A stretch of 64,000 nucleotides of DNA, from NCBI RefSeq assembly GCF_009914755.1, contig NC_060926.1. The stretch is one strand, 5' to 3'. Under the pieces are notes generated by a model. It did no database searches, was not told where the DNA came from, and saw only the letters and a list, made by a program, of their open reading frames with translations. Made by a program: the position numbers and the translations under genes. Below, one piece after another: positions 894-64,000 of the stretch. Source of the DNA: the human T2T-CHM13v2.0 reference genome, Homo sapiens. Within the stretch, counting starts at the first letter, position 1. The number at the start of each line of letters is the position of its first letter.

Positions 894-899
894 AGCTCT

Positions 900-5555: not shown

Positions 5556-9339
<3,784 letters not shown>

Positions 9340-19320: not shown

Positions 19321-19323
<3 letters not shown>

Positions 19324-19351
<28 letters not shown>
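19324..19351. repeat. (GT)n microsatellite
   Basis: About 14 uninterrupted GT units. Confidence 0.95.
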
Positions 19352-26760: not shown

Positions 26761-26794
26761 TCATTTGTCTTTTCATTTTCGAAATAGTGTCTTT

Positions 26795-31967: not shown

Positions 31968-32073
31968 TATATATATATATATATATTATATATATAATAT
32001 ATATGTATATATATTATATATATATTATATATGTATATATATTATATATACATATATATTATATATATATATA
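31968..32073. repeat. (TA)n-rich low-complexity tract
   Basis: ~105 bp of interrupted TA repeats. Confidence 0.95.
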
Positions 32074-34480: not shown

Positions 34481-34545
34481 AACCCTTAACTGTCTGACAA
34501 GAGCAGAAAAGTGAGTAAGACTTTGCAACTCTTTTTCTTTTTCGA

Positions 34546-34888: not shown

Positions 34889-37800
34889 AATCATCATCGA
34901 ATGGAGTAGAATGGAATTATCATCGAATGGAATCAAATGGAATCATCATCAAATGGAATATAATGGAGTCATCATCGAATGGAATCGAAAGGCATCATCA
35001 TCGAATGGACTTGAATGGAAACATCATCGAATGGACTCGAATGGAATCATCATCGAATGGAATCAAATGAAATCATCATTGAATGGAATCGAATGGAATC
35101 ATCATCGAATGGAATTGAATGGAATAATCACTGAATGGAATCGAATGGAATCATCGAATGGACTCGAGTGGAATCATCATCAAATGGAATCGAATGGAAT
35201 CATTATCAAATGGAATCGAATGGAATCATCATTGAAAGGAATCGAATGGAATCATCAACAAATGTAATCAAATGGAATCATCGAATGGAATCTAAAGGAT
35301 TCATCATCAAATGGAACTGAATGGAATCCTCATTAAATGGAACTGAACGGAGTAATCATCAAATGGAATCAAATGGACTCATGATCGAATGGAATCGAAT
35401 GGAATCATCATTGAATGGAATCGAATGGAATCATCATCGAATGGAATCAAATGGAATCACCGAATTGAATCGAATGGAAAGATCATCGAATGGAATCAAA
35501 GGGAATCATCGAAAGGGATCAAACGGAATCATCGAAGGGAATCGAATGGAATCATCAAATGGATTCGGATGGAATCATCAGCGAATGGAAATGAATGGAA
35601 TCATGGAATGGACTTGAAGGGAGTCATCATTAAATGGAATCCAATGGAATCATCAAATGAACACGAATGGAATCATCATTGAATGGAATCAAAAGGAATC
35701 ATTGAATGGCAACGAATGGAATCATCATCGAATGGAATCTAATGGAATCATCAAATGGACTCGAATGGAATAATCAAATGGGCTTGAGTGGAATTGTCAT
35801 CAAATGGAATCGAATGGAATCATCAAATGGACTCGAATAGAATCATCATCAAATGGAATCAAATGGGATCATCATCAAATGGAACTGAATGGAATCATCA
35901 TTGAATGGAATCAAATGGAATCATCATCGAATGGAATCACCAAACTGAATCAAATGGAATGATCATCAAAGGCAATCAAAGGGAAATATTGAAAGGGATT
36001 GAATGGAGTCATCGAATGGAATCGAGAGGAATCATCGAATGGATTCAAATGGAATCATCATTGAATGGAATCGAATGGAATCATCAAATGGACACGAATG
36101 GAATCACCATTGAATGGAATTGAATGGAATCATCGAATGACATTGAATGGAATCATCATCGAATAGAATCAAATGGAATAATCGAATGTACTCGAATGGA
36201 ATCATTGAATGGACTCGAGAGGAATAATCATTGAATGGAATCAAATAGAATCATCAAATGGACTCGAATGGAATCCTCATCGAATGGAATTGAATAGAAT
36301 CATTGAATGGAGATGAAGGGAATCATCATGGAATGGAATCGAATGGAATCATTGAATGGAGTTGAAAGGAATCATCAGCAAATGGAATCGAATGGAATCA
36401 TCGAATAGCAATGAATGGAATCATCATCGAATGGAGTCGAATGGAATCATCAAAAGAACTCGAATGGAATCATCATCGAATGGAATCGAATGGAATCTTT
36501 GAATGGACCCAAATGGAATCATCATCAAATGCAAACGAATGGAATCATCATTGAATGGAATCGAATGGAATCATCATCAAATGGAATCACATGGAATCAT
36601 CAAATGGAAAAGAATTGAATAATCATAGAAAGGAATTGAATAGAAACATTGACTAAAATCGAATGGAATCATCATCGAATGGAATTGAATGGAATCATCA
36701 TCGAATGCATCTGAATGGAATCATCATCGAATGGAATCGAATGGAATCATCAATGAATGGAATTGAAAGGAATCATCATCAAATGGCACCAAATAGAATC
36801 AACAAATGGACTCGAATGGAATCATCAAATTGACTCGAATGGAATCATCATCAAATGGAATCGAATGGAATCATCGAACGGAATTGAATCGAATCATCAT
36901 CGAATTAAATCAAATGGACTCGAATGGAATCAACATCGAATGGAATCGAAAGGACTCATGGATTGCACTCGAAGAGAATCATCGAATGGACTCAAATGGA
37001 ATCAACATCGAGTGGAATCAAAAGGAATCATCGAATGGACCCGAATGAAATCATCATTGAATGGAATCGAATGGAATCATCGAATGGACTTGAATGGAAT
37101 CATTATCTAATGGAACCGAATGGAATCATCATCAAATGGAAACGAAAGGAGTAATCATCGAATGGAATCACATGGAATAATCATCGAATGGACTTGAATG
37201 GAATCATCATCGAATGGACTCGAATGTAATCATCATTGAAAGGACTCGAATGGAATCATCATCGAATGGGCTCGAATGGAATCATCATCAAATGGAATCC
37301 AATGAAATCACCGAATGGAATCGAATGGAATCATCATCAACTGGAATTGAATAGAATCATCGAATGGACTCGAATGGAATCATCGGAGAATGGAATCGAA
37401 TGGAATTATTGAATGGACTCGAATGGAATCAAATTTGAATGGAATCGATGGGAATCATCAAATGGAATCGAATGCAATCATCATCGAATGGAATTGAATG
37501 GAATCATCGAATGGAATCGAATGGAACCACCATTGAATGCACTCGAATGGAATAATCATTGAATTTAATCAAAAGGTATAATCGAATGGACTCGAATGGA
37601 ATCATCATCGATTGGAACCAAATGGAATCATTGAATGGAATCAAAAGGAATCACCATCAAAAGTAATCAACTGAAATCACTGAATGGAATCGAATGGAAC
37701 CATCTTAGAAAATAATCGAATAGAATAATCGAATGGAATCGAATGCAAACAACTTCAAATGGAATCGAATGGAATCATAGAATGACATAGAATGGAATCA

Positions 37801-40800
37801 TCAACGAATGGAATCAAAGGGAATCATCATCGAATGGAATCAAAAGCAATCACTGAATGGACTTGAATAGAATCATCAAATGGATTTGAAGGGAATCCTC
37901 ATCGAATGGAATACAATGGAACCATCGAATGGAATCGAATGGAATCATCATCGAATGGAATCAAATGGAATCATCAAATGGACACGAATGGAATCATCAT
38001 CAAATGGAATCGAATGTGATCATCATCAAATGGAATCAAATGGAATCATCGAATGGACACGAATGGAAGGAACAAATGGACTCGAATGGAAACATCAAAT
38101 AGAATCGAATGGAATCATTCAATGGACACGAATGGAAGGAACAAATGGACTCGAATGGAAACATCAAATAGAATCGAATGGAATCATCGAAAGGAATCGA
38201 ATGGAATTATTGAATGGACTCAAATGGAATCATCGAATGGACACGAATGGAATTATCATAAAATGGAATCGAATGGAATCATCAAATGGACTCGAATGCA
38301 ATCATTGAATGGACTCGAATGGAATCATCGAATGGACTCAAATGGAATCATCATCAAATGGAATCGAATGGAATCATCGAATGGACTCAAATGGAATCAT
38401 CAAATGGAATCAAACAGAATCATCATCAAATGGAATTGAATGGAATCAACAAATGGAATTGAAGGCTATCATCATCGAATGGAATCTAATGGAATCATCA
38501 TCAAATAGAATCGAATGGAATCATTGAATGGAATCAAATGGAATCATCGAATGGAATCAAATGGAATCATTGTTGAATGGAATGGAATGGAATGGAATGG
38601 AATCATTGAATGGAATTGAATGGGATCACCAATGAACGGAATCAAATGGAATCATCTTCTAATGGAATCGAAAGGAATCATCGAATGGACTCGAATGGAA
38701 TCATCAAATGGACTCGAATGGAATTATCAAATGGTCTCGAATGGAATCATCAAATGGACCCTAATGGAATCATCATCGAATGGAATCTAATGGAATCATC
38801 AAATGGACTCGAATGGAATCATTGAATTAACTCTAATGAAAACATCAAATGGATTCAAATGGAATCATCTTGGAATGGTATTGAATGGAATCCTCGAATA
38901 GAATCAAATGGAATTATGAAATGGAATTGAACGGAATCATCATTGAATGGAATCGAATGGAATCATCGAATGGAATCGAAGGCAATCATCATCGAATGGA
39001 ATCAAATGGAATCATCAAATGGAATTAAATAGAATCATTGTCAAGTGGAATTGAGTGAAATCATCGAATGGAATCGAATGGAATCATTGTCGAATGGAAT
39101 GGAATGGAATCAATGAATGGAATTGAATGGAATCACCAATGAATGGAATTGAATGGAATCATCATCGAATGGAATCGAATGGAATCATCATCAAATGGAA
39201 TCGTGTGAAATCATCTAATGGGCACGAATATAATCATCATCGAATGGAATCGAATGGAATCATCATCAAATAGAATCGAATGGAATCACTGAATGGACTT
39301 GAATGGAATCATCATCAAATGGAATCGAAAGGAATCATCTAATGGACTCAAAAAGAATCATCATTGAATGAAATCGAATGGAATCACTGAGTGGACACGA
39401 ATGGAATCATCATCGAATAGAAACGAATGGCATCAACAAATTTACTCGAATGGAATATAATCGAATGGAATCAAAAGCAATCATCGAATGGACTCAAATG
39501 GAATTATCGAGTGGACTTGAATGGAATCATCGAATGGACCCGAATGGATTCATAATCGAATGGACTCAAATGGAATGATCGAATGGAATAATCATCAAAT
39601 GGAATCGAATGGAATCATCATCAAGTGGAATCGAGTGGAATCATAGAATGGAATCGAATGGAATCATTGTCGAATCGAATGGAATGGAATCAATGAATGG
39701 AATTGAATGCAATCATCATCGAATGGAATCAAATGTAATCATCAAATGGACTTGAATGGATTCATCATCAACAGGAATTGTGTGAAATCATCTAAAGGTC
39801 ACGAATAGAATCAACATCGAATGGAATCGAATGGAATCATCTAATGTATTCGAATGGAGTTATCATTGAATGGAATAGAATGGAATCATTGAATGGAATC
39901 AAAAAAACATCATAGTTTGGATTCGAATGGAATCATCGAATGGACTCGAATGGAATCATCAGAGAATGGAATCAAACGGAATCATCAAATGGACTTGAAT
40001 GGAATCATCATCAAATGGAATCGAATGGAATCATTGAATGGACTCAAATGGAATCATCATCAAATAGAATCGAATGGTATCATTGGATGCACTTGAAGTG
40101 AATCCTCAACAAATGGTTTCGAATGGTATCATCGAATGGAATCGAATGGAATCATCTTCAATTGGCATCGAAAGGAATCACCGAATGGACTTGAATGGAA
40201 TAATCATTGAAAGGAATCGAATGGAATCATCGAATCGAATCGAATGGAAAAATCATCAAATGGAATCAAATGGAAACATCGAATGGACTCGAATGGAATC
40301 ATCATCGTATGGAATCAAATGGAATCATTGAATTGAATTGAATTGAATCATCATCAAAAGGAATCAAATGGAATCACCATCGAATGGAAATGAAAAGAAT
40401 CATAACCAAATGGAGTAGAATGGAATCATCATCGAATGGAATCCAAAGGAAACAGCATTGAATGGAACCGAATGGAATCATCATTGAATGGAAATGAAAG
40501 GAGTCATCATCGAATGGAATCACATGGAAACATCATCGAATGGAATCGAATGGAATCATCATCAAATGGAATCTAATGGAATCATTGAATGGAATTGAAT
40601 GGAATCATCATCAAATGAATTGAATGAAATCATCGAATCATCTCGAATGGAATCATTATCAAATGGAATCAAAAGAAGTCACCGAATAGAATCGAATGGA
40701 ATAATAATTGAATGGACCCGAATGTAATCATCATCAAATGGAATCAAAAGGAATTATCAAATGGAATCGAATAGTATCATCTAATGGACTCCAATGGAAT

Positions 40801-43800
40801 CATCGAACGGAATGGAATGGAAAAATCAATGAATTCGAATGGAATCATTGTTGAATGGAATCAAATGGAATTATCATCAAATGGAATCGAATGTCATCAT
40901 CATCGAATGAAATCGAACAGAATCATCATCCAATGGAATCAAATGGAAGCATATTCGAAGAGAATCCAAAGGAATCATCATTGAATGGAACCAAAAGGAG
41001 TCATCATCGAATGGAATCGCATGGAATCATCATCGAAAGGAATTGAATGGAATCATCATCAAATGGAATCTAATGGAATCATCTAATGGAATTAAATGTA
41101 ATCATCATCGAATGAATTGAATGGAATCATCGAATGATCTCGAGTGGAATCATCATCAAATGGAACCAAATGGAATCATGGAATAGAATCAAATGGAATA
41201 ATCATCAAATGGACTCGAATGGAGTCAACATCAAATGGAATCGAACAGAATTATCAAATGGAATCAAATAGAATCATCGAATGGACTCAAATGGAATCCT
41301 CAAATGGAATGGAATGGAATAATCAATGTACTCAAATGGAATCATCATCAAATGGAATCGAATGGAATCATCGAATGGACTCGAATGAAATCATCACCTA
41401 ATGGAATGAAATGGAATCATCGAATGGAATCTTCATTGAATGGACTCTAATGGAATCATCAAATGGACTCAAATGGAACCATCGAATGGACTCGAATGTA
41501 ATCATCATTGAATGGTATCGAATGGAATCATTGAATGGACTCAAATGGAATAATCATCAAATGGAATCGAATGGAATCATCATCAGATGGAAACGAATGG
41601 AATCATCATCGAATGGAATCGAATGGAATTATCAAATGGAATCAGATGGAATCATCATCAAATGGAATAAAATAGAATCATCAAATGAAATCGAATGGAA
41701 TCATCATCAAACTGACTTGAGCAGAATCATCATCGAATGGAATAAAATAGAATCATTGAATGGACTCCAATGGAGTCATCATCGAGTGGAATCAAATTGA
41801 ATCATTGAATGAAGTCGAATGGAATCTTCATGGAGTTGAATGGAATGGAATCATCGAAAGGAGATGAAAGGAATCATCATCGAATGGAATCGAATGGAAT
41901 CATCGAATGGACTCGAATGGAATCATCATCGAATGGAATAGAATGGAATATTTGAATGGACTAGAAAGGAATCACCATCGAATGCAATCGAATGGAATCA
42001 TCATCAAATGGAATTGAATGGAATCATCATTGAATGGAATCAAAAGGAATCGTCAAATAAAATAGAATTGAATCATCATCGAATGGAATCGAATAGAAAC
42101 ATCGAATGAAATCAAATGGAATCATCATCAAATGGAATCGAATAGAAACAAAGAATGAAATCCAATGGAATCACCATCGAATGGAATTGAATGAAATCAT
42201 CATCGAATGACATTGAATGGAATCATCACTGAATGGAATCGAATGGAATCATCAATGAATGGAATCCAATGGAATCATCATCAAAGGGAAACAAATGGAA
42301 TCATCAAATGGACTTGAACGGAATCATCGAATGGAATAGAATGGAATCATCATCGAATGAAATCAAATGGAATCATCGAATGGACTTAAATGGAATCATC
42401 ATCAAATATAATCCAATAGAATCATGGAATGCACTCGAATGGAATCATCTAATGGACTCAAATTGAATCAACATCGAGTGGAATCCAAAGGAATCATCGA
42501 ATGGACTTGAATGGAAACATCTAATAGACTCGAATGGAATAATTATTGAATGGAATCGAATTGAATCATTGAATGGACCCGAATGGAATCATCAACGAAT
42601 GGAATCAAATGGAATCATTGAATGGAATCTAATGGAATCGTCATTGAAAGGAATCGAATGGAATCATCATCGAATGGAATCAAATGGAATCATCATCGAA
42701 TGGAATCAAATGGAATCATCATCGAATGGAATCTAATGGTATCATCATCCAATGGAATCAAATGGAATCATCAATGAATGGAATTGAATGGAGTCATTGA
42801 AAGGAATCTGTTGTATTCGTCATCGAATGGAACCGAATGCAGTCATCATCGAATGGAATCGAATGGAATCATCAAACGGACTTGAATGCAATCATCGAAT
42901 GGACTCGAATAGAATCATCATCGAATGGAAACGAACAGAATCATCAAAGGGACTCGAATGGAATTATCGTAGAATGGAATTGAATGGAATCATTGAATGG
43001 ACTCGAATGGAATCATCAACGAATGGAATCAAATGGAATCTTTGAATGGACTTGAATGGAATCATAGAATTGACTTGAATGGAATCATTGAATTGACATG
43101 AATGGACACGAATGGAATCATCATCGAATGGACTCCAGTGGAATCATCATCAAATGGAATCCGATGGAATCATCGAATGGAATCGAGTGGAATCATCATC
43201 GACTGGAATTGAATGGAACAATTGAATGGACTCGAGTGGAATCATTGGAGAATGGAGTCGAATGGAATTATCAAATGGACTCGAATGGTATCAACTTTGA
43301 ATGGAATCAAAGGGAATCATAGAATGGAATCAAATGCAATCATCATCGAATGGAATCGAATGGAATTATCAAATGGAATCAAATAGAATCATTGAATGGA
43401 CTCGAATGCAATTAACAAAAGGAATGGAATTGAATAATAAATGAAGACGAATGGAATCATCATTGAATGGAATCGAATGGAATCATCGAATGGACACGAA
43501 TGGAATAATCATCAAATGCAATCAACTGGAGTCATCATAGAATGGATTCCAATGGAATCATCATCTAATGGAATCGAATGGAATCATCGAATGAAGTAGA
43601 ATTGAATCATCATCGAATGGAATCGAATAGAATCATCGAATGAAATCGAATGGATTCATCATCGAATGGAATCAAATGGAATTATCATTGAATGCAATTG
43701 AATGGAATCATTATCGAATGGAATCGAATGGAATCATCAACAAATGGAATCCAATGGATTCATCATCAAATAGAAAAAATGGAATATCAAAAGGACTCGA

Positions 43801-46800
43801 ATGGAATCATCGAATGCACTCGAATGGAATCATCACCAAATGGAGTCAAATGGAATCATTGAAAGGAATCAAATGGAATCATCATCGAATGAAATCAAAT
43901 GGAATCATCGAATGGACTCGAATGGAAACATCACCAGATGCAATTGAAAGGAATCATGGAATGCACTTGAAAGGAATCATCAAATATACTCATATGGAAC
44001 CAACATTGAGTGGAATCGAAAGAAATCTTCGAATGGAATTGAATTGAATCACCGAATGGACTCAAATGGAATCATCATTGAATGGAATCGAATGGAATCA
44101 TCATCTAATGGAATCGAGTGGAATCATCAATGAATGGAATCGAATGGAGTCACCAAATGCAATCCGTTGGAATCATCATCGAATGGAACCAAATGCAGTC
44201 ATCATCTAATGGAATCAAATGGAATCGTCGAATGGACTCAAATGGAATCATCGTATGGACACGAATGCAATCATCATCGAATGGAATCTAATGGAAGCAG
44301 TAAATGGAATCCAATGGAATAATCATTGAATGGACACAAATGGAATCATCATTGAATGGAATCGAATGGAATCATCATCGACTGGAATTGAATGGAATCA
44401 TCGAATGGACTCGAATGGAATCATCGGAGAAAGGAATAGAATGGAATTATCGAATGGACTCGAATGGAATCAACTTTGAATGGAATAGAAGGGAATCATC
44501 AAATGGAATCGAATGCAATCATCATGGAATGGAATCGAATGGAATCATCTTCAGCTGGAATTGAATGAAATCATCGAATGGACTCGAGTGGAATCATCGG
44601 AGAATGGAATCAAATGAAATTATCAAATGGACTAGAATGGAATCAACTTTGAATGGAATCGAAAGGAATCATCGAATGGACTTGAATGCAGTCATCGAAT
44701 GGACACGAATGCAATCATCATAGAATGGATTCGCATTTAATTATCATCGAATGGAATCGAATGGAATCATCATCAAATGGAATCAAATGGAATCATCGAA
44801 TTGAATTGAATGGAATCATCATCGAATGAATTGAATTGAATCATCAAATGGTCTCAAATGGAATCATCATCAAATGGAATCGAATGGAATTATCGAATGG
44901 AATCGAATAGAATCATTGAATGGACTCGAACGTAATCATCAAAAGGAATTGAATGGAATAATAAATGAAGACAAATGGAATCATCATTGAATTGAATCGA
45001 ATGGAATCATCGAATGGAATTGAATGGAATCATCATCGAATGGAATCGAATGGAATCATCATCGAATGGAATCGAAAATAATAATCATCAAATGAAATCG
45101 AATGGAATCATCATCGAATGGAATCCAAAGGAATCATCATAAAATGGAACCGAATGGAATCATCATCGAATGGAACCAAAAGGAGACATCATCGAATGGA
45201 ATCACATGGAATCATCATCGAATGGAATTGAATGTAATCATCATCAAATGGAATCAAATGGAATCATCCAATGGAATAGAATTGAATCATCATCAAATGG
45301 AATCAAATAGAATCATCGAATGAAATCGAATGGAATCATCATCGAATGGAATCGAATGGAAAAATCATCGAATGGAATCGAATGGAATCATCATCAAAAG
45401 GAATTGAATGGAATCATCATAGAATGGAATCGAAAAGAATCATCATCAAATGGAATCGAACGGAATCATCATCGAATGGAATCCAAAGAATCATCATCGA
45501 GTGGAACCGAATGGAATCATCATCAAATAGAACCAAAAGCAGACATCGTCGAATGGAATCAAATGGAGTCATCTAATGGACCTGAATGGAATCATCGTCG
45601 AATGGAATCAAATGGAATCATCTAATGGACCTGAATGGAATCATCATTGAATGGAATAGAATTGAATCATCATCGAATGGAATCCATTGGAATCATCAAA
45701 TGGATCCGAATGGAATCATCATTGAATGGAATAGAATGGAATGACCATCGAAGGTAATTAAATGGAATCATCTAATGGACAAGAATAGAATCATCATCGA
45801 ATGGAATCGAATGGAATCATCTATTGTACCCAAAAGGAATCATCATCAAATGGAATAGAATGGAATCATTGAATGGAATCAAATGGAATCATCATCGTAT
45901 GGAATTGAGTGGAATCATTGAATGGTCTCATATATAATCATTGGAAAATGGAATCAAATGGAATCATCGAATGGAATCGAATTGAATAATCATCAAATGG
46001 AATCGAATGTAAACATCTAATGGACCCAAATGAAATCATCATTGAATGGAATCGAAAGGAATCATCAAATGGACTCGAATGGAGTCATCGTCGAATATAA
46101 TTGAAAACAATCATCAAATATATTTGAATGGAATCATCGAATGGATTCAAATGCAATAATCATCAAATGAAATCAAATGGAATCATCAAATGGATTCGAA
46201 TGCAATCGTCATCAAATGGAATAGAATGGAATCATCGAATGGAATCGAATGGAATCATCGTTGAATGAAATCGAATGGAATCATCAAATGACTCGAATGG
46301 AATCATCATCAAATAGAATTGAATGGAATCATCGAATGGACTCGAATGGAATTATCATCAAATGGAATCAAATGGAATCATCTAATAGAATCGAATGTAA
46401 TCATCATCGAATGAAATCGTATTGAATTATCAAATCTCCTCGAATGGAATCATCATTGAATGGAATCAAATGGAATCATCGAATAGACTCGATTGGAATC
46501 ATCATCGAAAGGAATGGAATGGAATCATCAAATGGATTCGAATGGAATAATCATCGAATGAAAGCGAATGGAATCATCAAATGGAATCATCATTGAATGG
46601 AATCAAATGGAATGATCTAACAGACTCCAATGGAATCAACATTGAATGGAATCGAACAGAAACATCGAATGGAAGTGAATGGAATCATTATTGAATGGAA
46701 TCAAATGGAATCATCAAATGCAATCAAATTGAATCATCATCGAATGGAATCAAATGGAATCATCGAATGGAATAGAATAGAATCATCTTCGAATGCAAAC

Positions 46801-52800: not shown

Positions 52801-54388
52801 TGGAACCATCGATTGGCATCGAATTGAATCATCAGTGAATGTAATCTAAGGGAACAATCGAATGGAACTGAATGGAATCATCAAATGGACTCGAGTGGAA
52901 TCATCATCGAATGGAATCGAATGGAAACATCGAATGGACACGAATGGAATCATCTTTGAATGGAATCGAATGGAATCATCGAATGGACTCGAAAGGAATC
53001 ATCATCAAATGGAATCGAATGGAATCAACATCAAATGGAATCAAAAGGAATCATTGAATGGAATCAAATGGAATCATCATCGAATGGAATGGAATGGAAT
53101 CATTGAATGGACACTAAAGGAATCATCACCGAATGGAATTGAATGGAATCTTCGAATGGACTCGATTGAAATCATCATCAAATGCAGTCGAATGGAATCA
53201 TCATCAAATGGAATCGAATGGAATCATCATCGAATGGAATCGAATGGAATCATTGAGTGTACTCGAATGGAATCATCATCAGATGAAATCGAATGGAATC
53301 ATCGAATGGCATCAAATAGAATCATCAATGAATGGAATCTAAGGGAATAATTGAATGGAATCAAAAGGAATCATCAAATAGACTCGAGTGGAAGCATCAT
53401 CGAATGGAATCGAATGGAATCATCAAATGGACTCAAATGGAATCATCATCGAATGGAATTGAATGGGATCATCGAAGGGACTCGAATGGAATCATCATCG
53501 AATGGAATCGAATGGGATCATCGAATGGACTCGAATGGAATCATCATTGAATGGCATCGAATGTAATCTTTGAATGCACTCGAATGGAATCATCATTGAA
53601 TACAATCGAATGGAATCATCATCAAATGGAATCGAATGGAGTCCTCATCAAATGGAATCGAATAGAAGCATCCAGTGTAATAGAATTGAATCATCATCAA
53701 ATGGAATCGAATAGAATTATTGAATGGAATCGAATGGAATCATCAACGAATGGAATCGAATGGAGAAATTGAATGGAATCCATTGTAATCATCATCGAAT
53801 TGAACCCAATGGAATCATCAAATGGACTCGAATGGAATCATCGAATGCAATCGAATGGAATCATCATCAAATGGAATCGAATGGAATCATCAAATGTACT
53901 CGAATGGAATCACCATCGAATGGAATCTAATGGAATCGTCTAATAGACACTAATGGAATCATCATCAAATGGAATCGAATTGAATCATCAAATGGACTAG
54001 AATGGAATCATCATCGAATATTACTGAAAACAATCATCAAATGGATTCGAATGGAATCATCAAAAGGACTCAAATGGAGTCATCAAATGGACTCAAATGG
54101 AATCATCATAGAATGCAATGAAATGGAATCATCGAATGGACTCGAATGGAATGGTCATCGAATGGAATCGAATGGAAATATCAAATGGAATCATCATCGA
54201 ATAGAATTGAATGCAATCATCGAATGGACTCAAATGGAATCATCATCAAATGGAATCGAATGGAATCATTGAATAGAATCGAATGTATTTGTCATCGAAT
54301 GAAATCGCATTGAATTATTGAGTGGACACGAATGGAATCATCATCGAATGGAATATAATGGAATCATTGAATGGACTCCAATGGAGTC
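34889..54388 (+). repeat. Satellite II (HSat2/HSATII) array, GAATG-strand orientation, diverged
   Basis: Continuous 23/26-bp monomers CGAATGGAATCGAATGGAATCAT(CAT) with GGACTCG variants. Confidence 0.97.
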
Positions 54389-54390
54389 CG

Positions 54391-57300
54391 TCTATTCCAT
54401 TCAATGATGATTCCATTCGGATCCATTTGATGATTCCAATGGATTCCATTCGATGATGATTCAATTCTATTCCATTCAATGATGATTCCATTCAGGTCCA
54501 TTAGATGACTCCATTTGATTCCATTCGACGATGTCTGCTTTTGGTTCTATTTGATGATGATTCCATTCGGTTCCACTCGATGATGATTCTTTGGATTCCA
54601 TTCGATGATGATTCCGTTCGATTCCATTTGATGATGATTCTTTTCGATTCCATTCTATGATGATTCCATTCAATTCCTTTTGATGATGATTCCATTCGAT
54701 TCCATTCGATGATTTTTCCATTCGATTCCATTCGATGATGATTCCATTCGATTTCATTCGATGATTCTATTCGATTCCATTTGATGATGATTCAATTCTA
54801 TTCCATTGGATGATTCCATTTGATTCCATTTGATGATGATTACATTCAATTCCATTCGATGATGATTCCATGTGATTCCATTCGATGATGTCTCCTTTTG
54901 GTTCCATTCGATGATGATTCCATTCGGTTCCATTTTATGATGATTCCTTTGGATTCCATTCGATGATGATTCCATTCGATTTCATTTGATGATTATTATT
55001 TTCGATTCCATTCGATGATGATTCCATTCGATTCCATTCGATGATGATTCCATTCAATTCCATTCGATGATTCCATTCGATTCAATTCAATGATGATTCC
55101 ATTTGTCTTCATTTATTATTCCATTCAATTCCTTTTGATGATTACGTTCGAGTCCATTCAATGATTCTATTCGATTCCATTCGATAATTCCATTCGATTC
55201 CATTTGATGATGATTCCATTTGAGACCATTCGATGATTCAATTCAATTCATTCGATGATGATTCCATTCAATTCAATTCGATGATTCCATTTGATTCCAT
55301 TTGATGATGATTCCATTCGATTCCATTCGATGATAATTAAATGCGAATCCATTCTATGATGATTGCATTCGTGTCCATTCGATGACTGCATTCAAGTCCA
55401 TTCGATGATTCCTTTCGATTCCATTCAAAGTTGATTCCATTCTAGTCCATTTGATAATTTCATTTGATTCCATTCTCCGATGATTCCACTCGAGTCCATT
55501 CGATGATTTCATTCAATTCCAGCTGAAGATGATTCCATTCGATTCCATTCCATGATGATTGCATTCGATTCCATTTGATGATTCCCTTCTATTCCATTCA
55601 AAGTTGATTCCATTCGAGTCCATTCGATAATTCCATTCTATTCCTTTCTCCGATGATTCCATTCGAGTCCATTCGATGATTCCATTCAATTCCAGTCGAT
55701 GATGATTCCATTCGATTCCATTCAATGATGATTCCATTTGTGTCCATTCAATGATTATTCCATTGGATTCCATTTACTGCTTCCATTAGATTCCATTCGA
55801 TGATGATTGCATTCGTGTCCATACGATGATTCCATTTGAGTCCATTCGACGATTCCATTTGATTCCATTAGATGATGACTGCATTTGGTTCCATTCGATG
55901 ATGATTCCAACGGATTGCATTTGGTGACTCCATTCGATTCCATTCATTGATGATTCCACTCGATTCCATTAGATGATGATTCCATTCGATTCCATTCAAT
56001 GATGATTCCATTTGAGTCCATTCGGTGATTCAATTCAATTCCATTCGAAGATTTCTTTCGATTCCACTCAATGTTGGTTCCATATGAGTATATTCGATGA
56101 TTACTTTCAAGTGCATTCCATGATTCCTTTCAATTGCATCTGGTGATGTTTCCATTCGAGTCCATTCGATGATTCCATTTGATTTCATTCGATGATGATT
56201 CCATTTGATTCCTTTCGATGATTCCATTTGACTCCATTTGGTGATGATTCCATTCGAGTGCATTCGATGATTCCATTCGAGTCCTTTTGATATTCCATTT
56301 TTCTATTTGATGATGAATCCATTGGATTCCATTTGTTGATGATTCCATTCGATTCCATTCGATAATGATTCCATTCAATTGCATTCAATGATAATTCCAT
56401 TTGATTCCATTCGATGATGAATCCATTCGATTTCATTCGATGATTCTATTCGATTCCATTCGATGATGATTCAATTCTACTTCATTCGATGATTCCATTC
56501 GATTCCATTAGATGATGATTCCATTGGAATCCATTCTATGATGACTCCAGTTGATTGCATTTGATGATTATTCCATTCGTGTCCATTCGATGATTCCATT
56601 CGATTCCATTCGATGACGATTCCATTTGAGTCCATTCGATGATTCCATTCGATTCAATTCAATGATGATTCCATTCGTCTTCATTTATTATTCAATTCCA
56701 TTCCTTTTGTTAATTGCATTCGAGTCCATTCAATGATTCTATTTGATTCCATTTGATAATTCCATTCGATTCCATTCGATGATGATTGCATTTGATTCCA
56801 TTCTATGATTCCCTTTGATTCCATTCAAAGTTGATACCATTCGAGTCCATTTGATAATTCCATTCGACTCCATTCTCCAATGATTCCACTCGAGTCCATT
56901 CAATTGTTCCATTCAATTCCAGTCGATGATGATTCCACTCGATTCCATTCGATGATTCCATCGGATTCCATTTGATGATGATTCCACTGGAGTCCATTCG
57001 ATGATGATTCCATTCGTGTCCATTCATGTCAATTCAATGATTCCATTCAAGTCAATTCTATGATTCCATTCAAGTCCATTCAAAGATTCCATTTGATTCC
57101 ATTCGTTGATGATTCCATTCGAGTCCATTCAATGATTCCATTCAATTCCATTCTACGATAATTCCATTCGAGTCCCTTCGATGATTCTGTTCGTTTCCAT
57201 TCGATGATGATTCTATTCGAGTCCATTCGATGATTGCATTCAAGTCCGTTTGATGATTCCATTCGATTCCATTCGATGATGACTGCATTCGGTTCCATTC

Positions 57301-60300
57301 GATGACGAATACAACAGATTCCTTTCAATGACTCCATTCAATTCCATTCATTGATGATTCCATTTGATTCCATTGGATGATGATACCATTAGATTCCATT
57401 CGATGATGATTCCATTTGATTCCATTGGATGATGATACCATTAGATTCCATTCGATGATGATTCCATTTGATTCCATTCGATGATGATTCCATTTGATTC
57501 CATTCGATGATGATTCCATTCGATTCCTTTCAATGACGATTCCATTAGATTCCATTCAATGATTCCATTTGATTCCATTCGTTGATGATTCCATTCGGGT
57601 CCATTCAATGATTCAATTCGATTCCATTCAATAATTATTCCATTCGAGTCTATTAGATGTTTCCATTCAAGTCCATTCGATGATTCCTTTGGATTCCACT
57701 CGATGTTGATTCAATTTGAGTCCATTAGATGATTCCATTCGAGTGCATTCCATGATTCTATTGGATTATATTTGATGATGATTCCATTTAAGTCCATTCG
57801 ATGATTCCATTTGATTTCATTCGATGATGATTCCATTCTATTCCATTCGATGATTCCGTTCAAGTCCATTTGATGATTCCATTTGTTTCCCTTTGATGAT
57901 GATTCCATTGGATTCCATTCATTGATGATTCCATTCGATTCCATTCAGTGATGATTCCATTCAATGTCATTCGATGATGATTTCATTCAATTCCATTCGA
58001 TGGTGATTCCATTGGATTTCATTCTTTGTTTCTATTCGATTCCATTTGATGATGATTCCATTTGATTTCATTCGATGTTTCTATTCGATTCCATTCGATG
58101 ATGATTCAATTCTATTTTATTTGACGATTCCTTTTGATTCCATTCAATGATGATTCCATTCAATTCCATTTGATGATGATTCCATTCGATTGCATTCGAT
58201 GGTGATTCCTTTCTAGTCCATTCAAATATTCCATTCTATTCCATTCGATGATGATTCCATTCGAGTCCATTCGATGATTCCATTCGATTCCATTCGATGA
58301 TGATTCCTTTCATCTCCTTTCGATGATTCCATTCCATTCAACTCCATGAAGATTCCATTCGACTTCATTCAATGATTCAATTTGATTCCACTCGATGATG
58401 ACTCCATTGGAGTCCATTCAATGATTCTATTTTATTCCATTCGATGATGATTCTGCTCAAGTCAGTTTGATGATGATTCCATTCGATTTCATTTGATGAT
58501 TCTATTTTATTCCATTTGATGATGATTCCATCTGATTCCATTTGATAATTCCATTCGATTCCATTCGATGATGATTCCATTCGTTTCCATCTGATGATGA
58601 TTCCATTCGATTCCATTTGATGATTATTCCATTTGAGTCCATTCAATGATTCCATTCGATACCATTCAATGATGATTACATTCGAGTCCATTCGATGGTT
58701 CCATTTGAGTCCATTTGATGATTCCATTAGAGTCCATTCAATGAAGATTCCATTCGATGATTCCATTTCATTCCATTAGGTGATGATTTCATTCGAGTCC
58801 ATTCGATGATTCCATTCGATTCCATTTGATGATGATTCCATTTGAGTACATTGATTATTCCATTCCATTCCATTTGAGGATTCCATTTGAGTCCATTCGA
58901 TGATTCTATTTGATTCCATTTGATAATTCTGTTCGATTCCATTTGATGTTGACTCCATTCGAGTCCATTTGATGATTATTCCATTTGATTCTATTCCATG
59001 ATTCCATTTGGTTCCATTTGATGATGATTCCACTCGAGATCATTCGATGATTCCATTCAATTCATTCGATGATGATTACATTTAATTCCATTAGATGATT
59101 CCATTAGATTCCATTTGATGATGATTCCATTCAATTCCTTTCGATGATGATTCCATGCGATTCCATTCGATGATGACTCCTTTTGGTTCCATTCAATGAT
59201 GATTCCTTTGGATTCTCTTCGAATATGCTTCCATTTGATTCCATTGGATGATGATTCTGTTCGATTTCATTCGATGATGATGACATTCGATTCCATTTGA
59301 TGATAATTCCATTTGATTCCATTCAACAATGATTCCATTCGAATTCATTGATTTTTCCATTCCATTCCGTTCGATGATTCCATTGGAGTCCATTAGATGA
59401 TACTATTCGATTCCATTTGATAATTCCTTTTGATTCCATTTGATGATGATTACATTCGGGTCCATTCAATTATTATTCCATTCGATTCTATTCGGTGACT
59501 TCTTTTGATTCCATTTGATAATGATTCCATTCGAGATGATTCGATGATTTCATTCAATTCATTTGATGATGATTCCATTCAATTCCATTCAATGATTCCA
59601 TTAGATTCCATTTGATGATGATTCCATTCGATTCCATTCGATGATGTTTCCATGTGATTCCATTCGATGATGACTCCTTTCATTTCCATTCAATGATGAT
59701 TCCATTCGGTTCCATTCAATGCTGTTTCCTTTGGATTCCATTCGATGATGATTCCATTCTACTCCATTTGGTTATGATTCTTTTCATTTCCATTCGATGG
59801 TGATTCCATTTGATTCCTTTTGATGATGATTCAATTCAATTCAATTCAATGATTCCATTTGATTCCATACGATGATGATTCCATTCGAGTCCATTCGATG
59901 TTTCCATTTGATTCCATTTGATGATTTTTCCATTCGATTCGATTCGATGATTCCATTCGATTCCTTTCAATGATTATTCCATTCAAGTCCATTCGGTGAT
60001 TCCTTTCGATGCCAATTGAAGATGATTCCATTCGATTCCATTCGATGATACCATTCGAAACCATTTGTTGAGGATTCACTTCAAGTGCATCCAATGATAC
60101 CATTCGATTCTATTTGATGATGATTCCATTTGAGTCCATTCAATGATTCCATTCGATTCCATTTGATGATGATTCCATTCAAGTCCATTTGATGATTCCG
60201 TTTGATTCCATTCTCTGATGATTCCATTCGAGTCCATTCGATGATTCCATTCGAATCCAAACTATGATGTTTTTTTGATTCCATTCAATGATTCCATTCT

Positions 60301-63300
60301 ATTCCATTCAATGATAACTCCATTCGAATACATTAGATGATTCCATTCGATTCCATTCGATGTTGATTCTATTCGTGACCTTTAGATGATTTCACACAAT
60401 TCCTGTTGATGATGAATCCATTCAAGTCCATTTGATGATTACATTTGATTCCATTCGATGATGATTGCATTCAATTCCATTCATTGATTCCATTCCATTC
60501 GATTCGACAATGATTCCATTCGATTCCATTCTATGATTCCACTCGATTCCACTTGATGATGATTCCATTCGATTCCATTTGATGATTATTCCATTCGATC
60601 ATTCCATTTGAGTCCATTCGATTATGAATCCATTCGGGTCCATTCGATGATTCCATTCAAGTCCACTCGATAATTCCATTTGAGTCCATTCGATGATTGC
60701 TTTTGATTCCATTCGATTATATTCCATTCGAGTAAATTTGTTGATGCCATTCGTTTCTATTCGATGATGATTCCATTCGTGTCCACTCAGTGATTCCATT
60801 CGATTTCATTCAATGATGATTCTTTTTGAGTCCATTAGATGATTCCTTTCGATTCCATTTGATGATGATTCCATTCAAGTCCATTCAGTGATTCCATTCG
60901 ATTCTATTTGATGATGATTCCATTCGATTCCATTCGATGATGATTATATTCGTGCCCATTAGATGATTTCACACGATTCCATTTGATGATGATTCCATTC
61001 GATTCCATTCGATGATGATTCCATTCAATTCCATTCATTGGTGATTCCATTCAATTCCATTCATTGATTCCATTCCATTCCATTCGACAATGATTCCATT
61101 CGATTCCATTCGATGATTTCACTCAATTCCACTTGACAATGATTCTATTTAATTCCATTTGATGATTCCATTTGATTCCATTCGATGATGATTGCCTTCG
61201 ATTCCATTCGATGATTCCATTCGATTCCATTCAATGATGATTCCGTTCAATTCCATTTCATAATTCCATTTGATTCTATTCGAGGATTCCATTCAATACC
61301 ATTCCAAGATGATTCCATTTGAATCCATTTGATGTTTTCATTAGAGTTAATTCAATGATTCCATTCGAGTCCATTTGATGATTCCATTAGATTCCATTCG
61401 ATGATGATTCCATTAGGGTCCATTTGATGATTCCATTCGAGACCATTTGATAATTCCATTCGAGTCCATTTGATGATTCCATTCGAGTCCATTCGATGAT
61501 TCCTTTCGATTCCATTAGAAGATGATTCCATTTGATTCCGTTCATTGGTGATCCCATTCAATTCCATTCAATGATTCCATTCCATTCCATTCCATTCCAT
61601 TCAACAATGATTCCATTTGATTCCATTCGATGATTCCATTTGATTCCATTCAATGATTCCATTCGATTCTATTTGATGATGATTCCATTAGATTCCATTC
61701 GATGATGATAGCCTTCAATTCCATTTGTTGATTCCATTCAATTCCATTTGATGATGATTCTGTTTGATTCCATTTGATGATTCCATTTGAGTCCATTCGA
61801 TGATTCCATTCGATTCCATTTGATGATGATTCCATTTGAGTCCATTCGATGATTCCATTCGAGTCCATTCAATGATTGCATTCGAGTCCATTTGATGATT
61901 CCATTCGATTCCATTTTATGATAATTCCATTCGTGTCCATTCGATGATTCCATTTGAGTCCATTCAATAATTCCATTCGATTCCTTTCGATGATTCCATT
62001 CGATTCTATTTGATGTTTCCATTCGAGTCCATTTGTTCCTTCCATTCGTGTCCATTGAATGATTCCATTCGATTCTATTTGATGTTTCCATTCGAGTCCA
62101 TTTGTTCCTTCCATTCGTGTCCATTCGATGATTCCATTTGATTCCATTTGATGATGATCACATTCGATTCCATTTGATGATGATTCCATTCGTGTCCATT
62201 TGATGATTCCATTTGATTCCATTCGATGATGATTCCATTCGATTCCATTCGATGGTTCCATTGTATTCCATTCGATGAGGATTCCCTTCAAATCCATTTG
62301 ATGATTCTATTCAAGTCCATTCAGTGATTGCTTTTGATTCCATTCGATGATGATTCCCTTTGATTCCATTCGTTGATGATTCCATTCTATGTCATTCTAT
62401 GATTCCATTCGATTCCATTTGAAGTTGTTTGCATTCGATTCCATTCGATTATTCTATTCGATTATTTTCTAAGATGGTTCCATTCGATTCCATTCAGTGA
62501 TTTCAGTTGATTACTTTTGATGGTGATTCCTTTTGATTCCATTCAATGATTCCATTTGGTTCCAATCGATGATGATTCCATTCGAGTCCATTCGATTATA
62601 CCTTTTGATTAAATTCAATGATTATTCCATTCGAGTGCATTCAATGGTGGTTCCATTCGATTCCATTCGATGATTCCATTCAATTCCATTCGATGATGAT
62701 TGCATTCGATTCCATTTGATGATTCCCATCGATTCCATTCAAATTTGATTCCATTCGAGTCCATTCAATAATTCCATTCGATTCCATTCTCCGATGATTC
62801 CATTCGAGTCCATTCGATGATTCTATTCAATTCCAGTTGATGATGATTCCATTCGATTCCATTCGGTGATTTCATTGGATTCCATTTGATGATGATTCCA
62901 TTCGAGCCCATTCGATGATGATTCCATTCGAGTCCTTTCAATGATGATTACATTCGAGTCCATTCGATGATGATTCCATTCAAGTCCATTCGATGATTAT
63001 TCCATGTGATTCCATTCGATGATTACTCCTTTCGTTTCCATTTGATGATGATTCCATTCGGTTCCATTAGATAATGATTCCATTCAAGTCCATTCGATGA
63101 TTCCATTCGATTCCATTCAATGATGATTTCATTCGGGTCCATTCGATGATTCCTTTTGATTCCACTCGATGTTGATTCCATTTGAGTCCATTCGATGATT
63201 CTCTTCGAGTGCAATCCATGAGTCCTTTCGATTCCATTCGATGTTGATTCCATTCGAGTCCATTTGATTTAATTCGATGATGATTCGATTCAATTCCGTT

Positions 63301-64000
63301 CGATGATTCCATTCGATTCCATTTGATGATGATTCCATTCGAGTCAATTTGATGATTCCATTCGAGTCCATTTGTTGATTCTATTTGGTGCCATTTGATG
63401 ATGATTCCTTTCAATTCCATTCATTGATGATTCCATTCGATTCCATTCGATGATGATTCCATTCAGATGCATTCGATGATGATTCCATTCAATTCCATTC
63501 GATGATGATTCCATTCGATTTTAGTCAATGTTTCTATTCAATTCCTTTCTATGATTATTCAATTCTTTTCCATTTGATGATTCCATGTGATTCCATTTGA
63601 TGATGATTCCATTCGATTCCTTTCAATGATGATTCCATTCGTTTGCATTTGATGATGATTCCATTTGGGTCCATTCAAAGATTCCATTCGATTCCATTCG
63701 ATGATGATTCCATTCGAGTTCTTTTGATGATTCCATTCGACTCCATTCGATGATGATTCCATTCATTGCTATTCGATGATTCCATTCGATTCCATTTGCT
63801 GATGATTCCTTTCAACTCCATTCAATGATTCCATTCGATTCCATTCCATGATGATTCCCTTCATCTCCATTCAATGATTCTATTCAATTCCATTCGATGA
63901 GGATTCCATTCGAGTCCATTTGATGATTCTATTTGATTCCATTCAATGATTATTCCTCTCGAGTCCATTCAATGATTCCATTCGAGTACATTCAATTATT
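54391..64000 (-). repeat. Satellite II (HSat2) array in opposite (CATTC) orientation; inverted copy of 36177-45735
   Basis: ATTCCATTCGATTCCATTCGATG(ATG) monomers; minus-strand ORFs are near-identical mirrors of plus-strand ORFs at 36.4-45.6 kb. Confidence 0.97.

What the first reader, a model, noticed from the sequence alone, without database searches (positions are those of the whole stretch)
36177..64000. Giant near-perfect inverted repeat (palindrome) hidden inside the HSat2 array
Seen: 54391-64000 is the reverse complement of 36177-45735, giving arms of 9610 and 9559 bp around an 8655-bp spacer (45736-54390). Mirror coordinates sum to a constant (100177, e.g. ORFs 37880-38308+ and 61869-62297- give identical peptides), stepping to 100125, 100076, 100077 and 100126 at discrete indels. 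Rare variants such as aaaaaaacatcatagtttgg and atctgttgtattcgtc appear in both arms, so this is a specific copy, not generic satellite similarity. Monomers within an arm are far more diverged from each other than the arms are, so the event is recent or kept homogenised. Known: strand switches in HSat arrays exist in complete human assemblies, so the class is not new, though this locus may be undescribed. Inference: arms this similar can undergo arm-to-arm gene conversion, recurrent inversion of the spacer and fold-back instability.
Basis: partly seen in the sequence, partly recalled or inferred. Interest (0 to 1): 0.85.

Follow-up and report, generated by a model that had tools for sequence, protein, structure and literature searches.

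The report
Giant palindrome beside chromosome 2 centromere
The satellite inverted repeat is real, but it is only the core of a roughly 307,000-base mirror-image duplication next to the centromere of human chromosome 2, of the same kind as the large sex-chromosome palindromes.

Summary
36177-45735 mirrors 54391-64000 with 8 mismatches in 9,508 aligned bases and four indels (52, 49, 49 and 1 bp). Other HSat2 segments reach at most 88%.

The palindrome is not hidden inside the satellite; the satellite is its centre. Using flanks from the same assembly, the mirror runs from about window -103,100 to about 203,540 (chr2:94.695-95.002 Mb). That gives arms of about 149 kb, an 8,655-bp HSat2 spacer and a total of about 307 kb. 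Over the 95.6 kb aligned base by base there are 37 mismatches, or 99.96% identity. They are unevenly spread: one 34.4-kb run has none (0 of 200,000 simulations reach that).

The inner breakpoint lies in HSat2. The outer one lies about 300 bp inside alpha satellite, and the alpha satellite on the two sides is in opposite orientation.

Best reading: a young inverted segmental duplication made by a fold-back or template-switch event, later partly homogenised by exchange between the arms. It is a new member of a known kind. I found no paper that names it.

The parts
1..45735 (+). In-window part of the left arm. The full arm runs from about window -103,100 (outside the window) to 45735, about 148.8 kb, chr2:~94,694,900-94,843,735.
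   Evidence: Base-by-base mirror alignment from -49,999 to 45,622. Five of five 2-kb probes between -99.6 kb and -57.6 kb have a mirror copy. The outer end comes from L034: at least 99% identity out to about -103,100, then 88-91% in alpha satellite to -104,142.
34823..45735 (+).
   Evidence: TRF periods of 26 and 49 bp; 47.8 GGAAT per kb against 0.1 ATTCC per kb.
45736..54390 (+). Spacer: 8,655 bp of HSat2 in the same orientation as, and continuous with, the left-arm array. It has no mirror partner.
   Evidence: The alignment collapses to chance-level fragments here. Pentamer strand bias is the same as in the left arm. Skew is unchanged until about 54.4 kb.
54390..54391 (.). The single novel inner junction (strand-switch point): the plus-oriented array abuts the inverted copy of position 45735.
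   Evidence: Sequence read directly. The bases just inside the two boundaries do not match each other, so no microhomology is visible. The lost ancestral continuation cannot be examined.
54391..64000 (-). In-window part of the right arm. The full arm runs from 54391 to about window 203,540 (outside the window), about 149.2 kb, chr2:94,852,391-~95,001,540. HSat2 runs to 65,304.
57427..57478 (.). 52-bp stretch present only in the right arm (a satellite-unit-sized indel).
56612..56660 (.). 49-bp stretch (one 23+26-bp HSat2 unit) present only in the right arm.
45569..45617 (.). 49-bp stretch present only in the left arm, 118 bp from the inner boundary.
   Evidence: A different scoring scheme renders it as 5 clustered mismatches and ends the alignment earlier.
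14479..14838 (-). KSR1 N-terminal pseudo-exon, used as a non-satellite marker of the arm. Its mirror copy lies at about 85.3-85.7 kb on the plus strand.
   Evidence: Pfam PF20406 SAM_KSR1_N, E 3.7e-12. The region 14305-16305 recurs at chr2:94881869-94883869(-) with 3605 against 3609 bits.

Best explanation
The HSat2 inverted repeat is the centre of a palindromic segmental duplication of about 307 kb at T2T-CHM13 chr2:~94.695-95.002 Mb. It has two arms of about 149 kb at about 99.96% identity around an 8,655-bp HSat2 spacer. It lies between two alpha-satellite blocks of opposite orientation, on the q side of the centromere.

Shown:
- the anatomy, the arm identity and the two breakpoints;
- that each arm is far closer to the other than to any other paralogue (98% at most);
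- that the differences are very unevenly spread.

Inferred origin: one inverted-duplication event.
1. A break or stalled fork in the plus-oriented HSat2 array at 54390 switched template to the complementary strand 8.66 kb back, at 45735 (fold-back priming or a replicative template switch).
2. Synthesis copied about 149 kb towards the centromere.
3. Synthesis returned to the original direction by homology once it entered alpha satellite, because inverted alpha satellite already lay on the distal side.

At the ordinary human mutation rate (recalled, about 0.5e-9 per site per year), the divergence of 0.4-0.8 per kb dates this to roughly 0.4-0.8 million years, or later.

Inferred maintenance: exchange between the arms. 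Arm-to-arm gene conversion has erased differences over long tracts, and small patches may have been imported from paralogues. This explains a 34-kb stretch with no difference next to stretches with 0.66 per kb.

Expected behaviour (inferred from sex-chromosome palindromes):
- spacer inversion by intrachromatid recombination, which would move the strand-switch point from 54391 to 45735;
- dicentric and acentric products from sister-chromatid recombination;
- unit-sized slippage near the centre.
For: Structure:
- The mirror alignment is continuous from window -49,999 to 45,683 against 150,432 to 54,394.
- Five of five 2-kb probes further out have an inverted copy at 3562-3608 of 3608 bits.
- The outer end is resolved in L034.

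Identity: 37 mismatches and 15 indels in 95,608 aligned bases.

Specificity:
- The next-best paralogues of the probes are at most 98% identical, on chr9, chr22 and chr10.
- Within HSat2, the best non-mirror match is at most 88.1% in 19 of 19 chunks.

A duplication rather than an inversion: both copies are present, and the annotated genes mirror each other. LOC102724983 at 14305..22639(+) matches LOC128966588 at 78942..85910(-). LOC124906045 matches LOC124906044, with mirror sum about 100,435 (hub table).

One asymmetric junction: the spacer has the orientation of the left arm.

Outer junction in homologous, inverted alpha satellite:
- Identity falls from 100% through 99.2% and 95% to 88-91% within about 1.5 kb at the alpha-satellite edge.
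- The alpha satellite to the right (208-264 kb) is inverted relative to that on the left.

Uneven divergence:
- 21 mismatches in 32.0 kb, 3 in 52.8 kb and 13 in 10.9 kb.
- The longest clean run is 34,424 nt, reached in 0 of 200,000 uniform simulations.

Instability at the centre: three of the four largest indels (52, 49 and 49 bp, about one HSat2 unit) lie within 3 kb of the inner boundary. This parallels the centre-focused instability of X palindromes (PMC8327919, passages read).
Against: - No microhomology is visible at the inner junction, and the ancestral sequence past 54390 is lost. The fold-back or template-switch step is therefore a model, not an observation.
- Which arm is the original cannot be told. 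The spacer orientation could have been flipped since.
- Uneven divergence could instead come from regional mutation-rate differences, from mismatch clusters imported from the 95-98% paralogues, or from alignment choices in tandem repeats. Default BLAST scoring gives 38+182 mismatches with more gap openings, against 37 mismatches.
- About 49.5 kb of the left arm (-99,500 to -50,000) was sampled by only five 2-kb probes, not read in full.
- Only one haploid assembly was examined. No reads, other humans or apes were available, so age, frequency and even germline origin are untested.
Confidence: 0.55

Rival explanations
1. A very recent inverted duplication (tens to hundreds of thousands of years old) with no arm-to-arm conversion. 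On this reading the arms are alike simply because there has been no time to diverge. The denser patches of mismatches would be hypermutable tandem repeats or small tracts imported from the 95-98% paralogues on chr9, chr22 and chr10.
For: - The central 52.8 kb has only 3 mismatches, or 5.7e-5.
- Mismatches cluster: 8 fall within -24,647 to -22,059, and 5 within -18,783 to -18,161, beside a 246-bp indel.
- Many paralogues at 95-98% exist as possible donors.
Against: Patchy import would have to account for most of the 21 outer mismatches, which are spread over 32 kb. Twenty-seven of the 37 differences are transitions, as expected for ordinary point mutation. No donor was tested.
Confidence: 0.2
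2. An old palindrome that predates the human-chimpanzee split and is held at over 99.9% identity by continuous arm-to-arm gene conversion, as are the Y and X chromosome palindromes.
For: - The identity (99.96%) and arm length fall in the range of Y and X palindromes. X palindromes have arms of 8-140 kb and identity up to 99.99% (PMC8327919, passages).
- Identity decays gradually at the outer edge, as expected where conversion tracts seldom reach.
- Divergence along the arms is uneven.
Against: - No protein-coding gene family is annotated in the arms that selection could act on; there are only pseudogenes and lncRNA models (hub table).
- The locus identifiers of the right-arm genes date from the T2T era. 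This suggests the second arm is absent from, or unassembled in, GRCh38 (an inference from identifiers, not tested).
- No ape sequence was available.
Confidence: 0.18
3. An assembly artefact, or a rearrangement private to the CHM13 cell line, rather than a normal human germline structure.
For: - Only one assembly was examined.
- The arms contain identical stretches (34 kb) longer than HiFi reads, so joining the variants across them depends on ultra-long reads.
- HSat2 shows HiFi coverage anomalies (10.1101/2021.07.02.450803, passages).
Against: - The arms differ at 37 sites and 15 indels, including 246, 52 and 49 bp, and the spacer is asymmetric. Chimeric fold-back reads would give a spacer-less, error-level mirror.
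- The structure spans about 307 kb and ends in distinct flanks.
- The validation paper lists only five rare-duplication regions totalling 160 kb, the largest a 142-kb tandem duplication (passages). A 149-kb excess copy was therefore apparently not flagged. This is weak evidence, because k-mer copy number is hard to read in such paralogous sequence.
- Similar near-perfect inverted pairs occur at other pericentromeres.
Confidence: 0.06
4. A plain inversion (strand switch) inside an HSat2 array, of the kind counted in the T2T centromere maps, with no duplication.
For: The strand of the array does flip at 54391. Strand switches in satellite arrays are known (10.1101/2021.07.12.452052, passages).
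Against: An inversion leaves one copy. Here both copies are present at 99.9% identity and extend about 138 kb beyond the satellite on each side.
Confidence: 0.01

Closest known systems
Large palindromes of the human Y (P1-P8) and X (26 palindromes) chromosomes
   Same: Inverted arms tens to hundreds of kb long at over 99.9% identity around a unique spacer, with rearrangements concentrated at the centre. The same outcomes are expected: arm-to-arm conversion, spacer inversion and dicentric formation (PMC8327919, passages; Y palindrome figures are recalled).
   Different: - It is autosomal and lies directly beside a centromere.
- The centre and spacer are HSat2 satellite, and the outer ends are alpha satellite.
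- The arms carry only pseudogene and lncRNA models, not testis-expressed coding families.
- Conservation and conversion are untested here.
- The arms (about 149 kb) exceed the largest X arm quoted in that paper (140 kb).
Satellite strand switches (inversion breakpoints) catalogued in T2T-CHM13 centromere maps
   Same: An orientation flip inside an HSat array (10.1101/2021.07.12.452052, passages).
   Different: This is a duplication, not an inversion. The flip is the inner junction of a 307-kb palindrome that is mostly not satellite.
HSat2-associated pericentromeric inversions bounded by palindromic repeats (chromosome 7; pangenome centromere preprint 10.64898/2026.09.03.749043)
   Same: Pericentromeric location, HSat2 involvement, and palindromic repeats proposed to drive recurrent inversions of 20-70 kb (section 6 read). 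In CHM13, a chr7 pair at 58.85/58.90 Mb carrying a paralogue of the window's 14.3-16.3 kb module is 99.98% identical in inverted orientation.
   Different: The main text describes chromosomes 1, 7, 9 and 16 and does not name this chr2 locus. Here the spacer is only 8.66 kb and the arms are far longer.
Inverted duplications with a short single-copy spacer, made by fold-back priming or replicative template switching (known from constitutional and tumour rearrangements; recalled)
   Same: The inverted copy adjoins the original, with a few kb of single-copy spacer between them and one asymmetric junction.
   Different: - No terminal deletion or dicentric resulted.
- The copy ends after about 149 kb inside inverted alpha satellite.
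- Junction microhomology cannot be assessed.
The roughly 200-kb palindromic repeat in the distal junction of the acrocentric short arms
   Same: A large autosomal palindrome embedded in satellite-rich heterochromatin (PMC9186530, passage).
   Different: It is at a different locus with different sequence, is shared among five chromosomes, and is transcribed and conserved. Nothing of that kind is shown here.

Membership tests
Large genomic palindrome (as defined for sex-chromosome palindromes) | Two copies in inverted orientation on one chromosome | tested here: met
   Minus-strand self-alignments.
Large genomic palindrome (as defined for sex-chromosome palindromes) | Arms longer than about 8-10 kb with arm-to-arm identity above 99% | tested here: met
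   Arms of about 149 kb. There are 37 mismatches in 95,608 aligned bases, and five of five outer probes score 3562-3608 of 3608 bits.
Large genomic palindrome (as defined for sex-chromosome palindromes) | Unique spacer between the arms | tested here: met
   45736-54390 (8,655 bp) has no mirror partner.
Large genomic palindrome (as defined for sex-chromosome palindromes) | Arm-to-arm gene conversion (concerted evolution) | tested here: inconclusive
   Strongly uneven divergence (0 of 200,000 simulations) is compatible with conversion, but other causes are not excluded. A real test needs several haplotypes or outgroups.
Large genomic palindrome (as defined for sex-chromosome palindromes) | Protein-coding (often testis-expressed) gene families in the arms | tested here: not met
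   The hub annotation lists only pseudogenes and lncRNA models. The KSR1-like exon is a pseudogene fragment. This feature is typical of the family rather than defining.
Human satellite 2 (HSat2) | Diverged CATTC-derived repeat with 23- and 26-bp units, as opposed to near-pure pentamers (definition recalled; derivation from (CATTC)n is stated in 10.1101/2021.07.12.452052) | tested here: met
   TRF periods of 26 and 49 bp at 71-73% matches. Only about 48 perfect GGAAT per kb. The best genomic matches of the spacer lie at chr16:39.27 Mb and chr7:59.17 Mb. The subfamily was not determined.
Simple satellite inversion (strand switch) | Orientation change without gain of a copy | tested here: not met
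   Both copies are present.
Fold-back or template-switch inverted duplication | Inverted copy adjoining the original with a short single-copy spacer | tested here: met
Fold-back or template-switch inverted duplication | Microhomology or short inverted homology at the junction | tested here: inconclusive
   None is visible between the spacer end and the sequence beyond 45735. The ancestral continuation is unknown.
Segmental duplication polymorphic in, or specific to, humans | [quoted passage not shown] | not testable with these tools
   Only the CHM13 assembly is held.

The most novel reading that the evidence does not exclude
HSat2 arrays, together with the GC-rich KSR1-pseudogene module next to them, are recurrent seeds of fold-back palindromes in human pericentromeres. 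This chr2q palindrome (149-kb arms), a chr2p pair (89.82/89.88 Mb, 100% identical over 4.5 kb) and a chr7 pair (58.85/58.90 Mb, 99.98%) would be independent, human-lineage products of one mechanism. In that mechanism a break in the satellite is healed by inverted copying that terminates in oppositely oriented alpha satellite. The resulting autosomal palindromes then evolve in concert, like those of the sex chromosomes. They would toggle their spacers and act as hidden sources of isodicentric chromosomes next to centromeres.
Probability: 0.25. Interest if true: 0.7.

Novelty: new member of a known kind. Interest (0 to 1): 0.5.

Why it matters
Palindromes with arms over 100 kb at above 99.9% identity are textbook features of the X and Y chromosomes. 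There they undergo gene conversion, invert their spacers and generate isodicentric chromosomes. An equally large one on an autosome, abutting a centromere and centred on a satellite array, extends that biology to pericentromeres.

It gives one concrete, base-resolved case in which both breakpoints of an inverted duplication can be read, one in HSat2 and one in alpha satellite.

It predicts a cryptic inversion polymorphism: the strand-switch point would toggle between chr2:94,843,735 and chr2:94,852,391. It also predicts concerted evolution of the arms. Both can be tested directly in existing pangenome and ape T2T assemblies.

On the practical side, reads from either arm cannot be placed uniquely, so variants and methylation calls across about 300 kb of 2q11.1 need palindrome-aware handling.

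Tried and rejected
- Whole-genome search with 10-kb queries scored only 1 of 40,418 candidates and missed even the self-match. I switched to 2-kb probes.
- Search with a 2-kb piece of the HSat2 spacer scored 2 of 15,836 candidates and did not list the self-match. It says nothing about whether a near-identical copy of the spacer exists elsewhere. It only shows generic HSat2 at 74-78% on chr7 and chr16.
- Probe 205,801-208,100 found itself and dispersed 91-97% copies but no mirror copy among 40 scored of 14,576 candidates. I took this as the palindrome having ended. L034 then confirmed it.
- I tested whether the mirror continues at lower identity through the alpha satellite. The left alpha satellite aligns to the right array at many 342-bp registers at 81-85%, with none standing out, so no older outer stratum can be claimed.
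- Simple inversion is rejected (see rivals).
- I tried to fetch the midpoints of the chr7 and chr2p inverted pairs, to see whether they are also centred on HSat2.
- Earlier findings of this scan were not open.
- Literature: five searches and passages of six papers gave no description of this chr2 palindrome.

Full report
**1. The observation**

The window is T2T-CHM13 chr2:94,798,001-94,862,000 (hub note; confirmed).

An inverted-repeat scan of 34-64 kb finds 36177-42797 against 57380-64000 (6,621 nt, 100%), with 1,848-nt (99%) and 923-nt (98%) continuations. The other long inverted pairs in the satellite are only 77-90% alike.

A global alignment of the left stretch with the reverse complement of the right gives five blocks:

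| Block length (nt) | Mismatches | Mirror sum |
|---|---|---|
| 6,522 | 2 | 100177 |
| 766 | 1 | 100125 |
| 309 | 0 | 100076 |
| 1,794 | 5 | 100077 |
| 117 | 0 | 100126 |

- That is 8 mismatches in 9,508 aligned bases.
- The blocks are separated by indels of 52, 49, 1 and 49 bp.
- Inside 45736-54390 the alignment breaks into chance-level fragments.
- The two rare words and the pair of identical ORFs sit at mirror positions.

As a control, I cut the left arm into 19 chunks of 500 nt. All 19 have a mirror match (median 100%). Their best non-mirror match within the array has median 83.2% and maximum 88.1%.

**2. What the satellite is**

- TRF finds periods of 26 and 49 bp, with consensus of the GAATGGAATCGAATGGAATCATCATC type at 71-73% matches. 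The array runs from 34.8 to 54.39 kb on one strand and from 54.39 to 65.30 kb on the other.
- Perfect GGAAT pentamers number about 48 per kb on the plus strand up to 54390, and ATTCC about 48 per kb after it.
- GC and AT skew change sign in the 54-56 kb bin.
- This is HSat2-type sequence. The 23+26-bp unit definition is recalled. The derivation from (CATTC)n is stated in the T2T centromere preprint (passages).
- The 8,655-bp 'spacer' has the orientation of the left arm and is continuous with it. There is therefore one novel junction, at 54390/54391.

**3. The real extent**

The left arm 'starts' at 36177 only because its partner runs off the window at 64000. I fetched the next 200 kb to the right, 50 kb to the left, and one further 9.5-kb piece from the same assembly.

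- Self-alignment shows the mirror is continuous from window -49,999 to 45,683 against 150,432 to 54,394.
- Five 2-kb probes taken from the right side at 158, 170, 178, 188 and 198 kb each find an inverted copy on the left, at chr2:94.738, 94.726, 94.718, 94.708 and 94.698 Mb. They score 3608, 3603, 3562, 3608 and 3595 of 3608 bits.
- The next-best paralogues, on chr9, chr22, chr10 and others, are at most 98% identical.
- In L034 the mirror holds at 100% to about -101,600 and at 99.2-99.6% to about -102,900. It is 95% around -103,100, then 88-91% to -104,142.
- That decline begins at the edge of alpha satellite. On the left this is a 171/342-bp repeat from -108,978 to -102,783.
- On the right, the mirror ends in a 1.36-kb alpha-satellite stub (342-bp dimers at 93%). 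This is followed by an interspersed repeat at 204.6-208.0 kb: dispersed copies at 91-97%, with no mirror copy among 40 scored of 14,576 candidates. It is probably LINE-1, which I did not test.
- Beyond that lies monomeric alpha satellite from 208,023 to at least 264,000.
- That array is inverted relative to the left alpha satellite. It aligns to it at many registers at 81-85% with none standing out. I therefore claim no mirror beyond about -103,100 / 203,540.

Summary of the extent:

| Part | Window coordinates | Length |
|---|---|---|
| Left arm | about -103,100 to 45,735 | about 148.8 kb |
| Spacer | 45,736 to 54,390 | 8,655 bp |
| Right arm | 54,391 to about 203,540 | about 149.2 kb |
| Total | chr2:~94,694,900-95,001,540 | about 307 kb |

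The annotated genes mirror each other. LOC102724983 (+) pairs with LOC128966588 (-), and LOC124906045 (+) pairs with LOC124906044 (-). About 49.5 kb of the left arm was only sampled, not read in full.

**4. How alike the arms are**

One gapped alignment covers -49,999 to 45,622. It has 95,608 aligned bases, 37 mismatches (27 of them transitions) and 15 indels totalling 384 nt, the largest being 246, 52 and 49. That is 99.96% identity at aligned positions. With default BLAST scoring the same region is reported with more mismatches and gap openings (38+182), so the count depends somewhat on how tandem repeats are gapped.

The differences are very unevenly placed:

| Region (window) | Mismatches | Length |
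|---|---|---|
| -50 kb to -18 kb | 21 | 32.0 kb |
| -18 kb to 34.8 kb | 3 | 52.8 kb |
| HSat2 part of the arm | 13 (8 with the gapping) | 10.9 kb |

The longest run without a difference is 34,424 nt. None of 200,000 uniform simulations reaches that.

**5. How it most likely arose and works**

Shown:
- an inverted duplicate adjoining its original;
- one asymmetric inner junction in HSat2;
- an outer end about 300 bp inside alpha satellite;
- oppositely oriented alpha satellite on the two sides;
- extreme but uneven arm identity;
- unit-sized indels clustered near the centre.

Inferred origin:
1. A break or stalled fork in the plus-oriented HSat2 array at 54390 switched to the complementary strand 8.66 kb behind it (fold-back priming or a replicative template switch).
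2. Synthesis copied about 149 kb towards the centromere.
3. It was resolved by homology when it entered alpha satellite, because inverted alpha satellite already lay distally.

The interspersed repeat, whose copies elsewhere are 91-97% alike, separates the stub from the array. This argues that the stub belongs to an older right-hand array.

No microhomology is visible at the inner junction, and the ancestral continuation is lost. This step is therefore a model.

Dating: with a mutation rate of about 0.5e-9 per site per year (recalled), 0.39-0.84 differences per kb give about 0.4-0.8 million years if there has been no exchange. The central 53 kb alone would give well under 0.1 million years. 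Either long arm-to-arm conversion tracts have erased differences, or the duplication is very young and the denser patches are imported or hypermutable.

Expected behaviour, by analogy with X and Y palindromes (PMC8327919, passages):
- intrachromatid recombination that flips the spacer;
- sister-chromatid recombination that gives dicentric and acentric products;
- instability focused at the centre.

**6. Comparison with what is known**

- Strand switches in satellite arrays are catalogued for CHM13. This case is a duplication, not an inversion.
- Large palindromes are well described on X and Y. The X paper notes that human autosomal palindromes remain to be searched for with complete sequence.
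[quoted passage not shown] Its main text does not name this chr2 locus, and its supplements were closed.
- In CHM13, paralogues of the window's 14.3-16.3-kb module also sit in near-perfect inverted pairs. One is at chr7:58.85/58.90 Mb (99.98% over 5,148 nt). Another is at chr2:89.82/89.88 Mb (100% over 4,503 nt). The architecture therefore recurs.
- Five literature searches and passages of six papers gave no description of this palindrome. It is presumably present in the public SD and CenSat tracks, which I could not consult.

**7. Verdict**

The framing needs correcting: the satellite lies inside the palindrome, not the reverse, and the arms are about 15 times longer than reported.

It is a new, unusually large autosomal member of a known kind. 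An artefact is unlikely: there are 37 substitutions and 15 indels, an asymmetric spacer and distinct flanks. It is not excluded without reads or other genomes.

Interest is moderate. The specific locus, its base-resolved breakpoints in two satellites and the uneven divergence make several standing ideas about palindrome birth and concerted evolution directly testable in existing assemblies.

Noticed in passing
window 14479-14838 (-): This ORF fragment matches the KSR1 N-terminal helical hairpin (Pfam PF20406, E 3.7e-12). It lies antisense to the annotated transcribed pseudogene LOC102724983. Its mirror copy lies at about 85.3-85.7 kb on the plus strand.
   Followed up: partly
window about 14,800-16,100: A block of 65% GC is made of a tandem, arginine/lysine/glycine-coding-looking repeat that is open in several frames. 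It contains the word GCAAAAAGC 15 times between 14,966 and 18,935. From memory, this resembles the GCTTTTTGC-type repeats described at pericentromeric duplication boundaries. Paralogues at 74-83% lie in pericentromeres of chr1, 2, 7, 10, 13, 16, 17, 21 and 22.
   Followed up: partly
L003/L004 (chr7:58,901,269-58,906,416 and 58,846,450-58,851,597); L007/L008 (chr2:89,879,153-89,883,655 and 89,817,755-89,822,257): Two further near-perfect inverted pairs carry paralogues of the same module: 99.98% over 5,148 nt and 100% over 4,503 nt, about 50-57 kb apart. Equal-score inverted pairs also appear on chr1 (128.80/128.98 Mb), chr7 (58.66/59.10 Mb) and chr16 (34.73/34.85 Mb) in the hit lists. Their centres could not be read.
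   Followed up: partly
outside the window: -108,978 to -102,783, and 203.2-204.6 kb plus 208,023 to at least 264,000: Alpha satellite on the two sides of the palindrome is in opposite orientation. The right-hand array shows no higher-order period (monomeric), the left sample shows weak 342-bp dimers, and the right stub shows 342-bp dimers at 93%.
   Followed up: partly
outside the window: 204,577-208,023: A 3.4-kb interspersed repeat has many copies at 91-97% across the genome. It separates the alpha-satellite stub from the right-hand array. It is probably a LINE-1, which I did not test.
   Followed up: no
outside the window: 170,667-173,456 (right arm): A 2.8-kb simple satellite with 5-, 13- and 18-bp periods of the TCATT type lies inside the arm. 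Neighbouring sequence forms an internal tandem with copies at 73-78%.
   Followed up: no
outside the window: right arm about 119,205 against left -18,778: A 246-bp stretch is present only in the right arm. It is the largest arm difference and is flanked by a cluster of 5 mismatches.
   Followed up: no
L019 (chr2:94,962,001-94,972,000): This 10-kb piece of the right arm matches chr10:38,804,444-38,813,619 at 91% over 9.3 kb. The arms are thus a mosaic of interchromosomal pericentromeric duplications (chr9, 10, 15, 16 and 22 at 90-98%).
   Followed up: no
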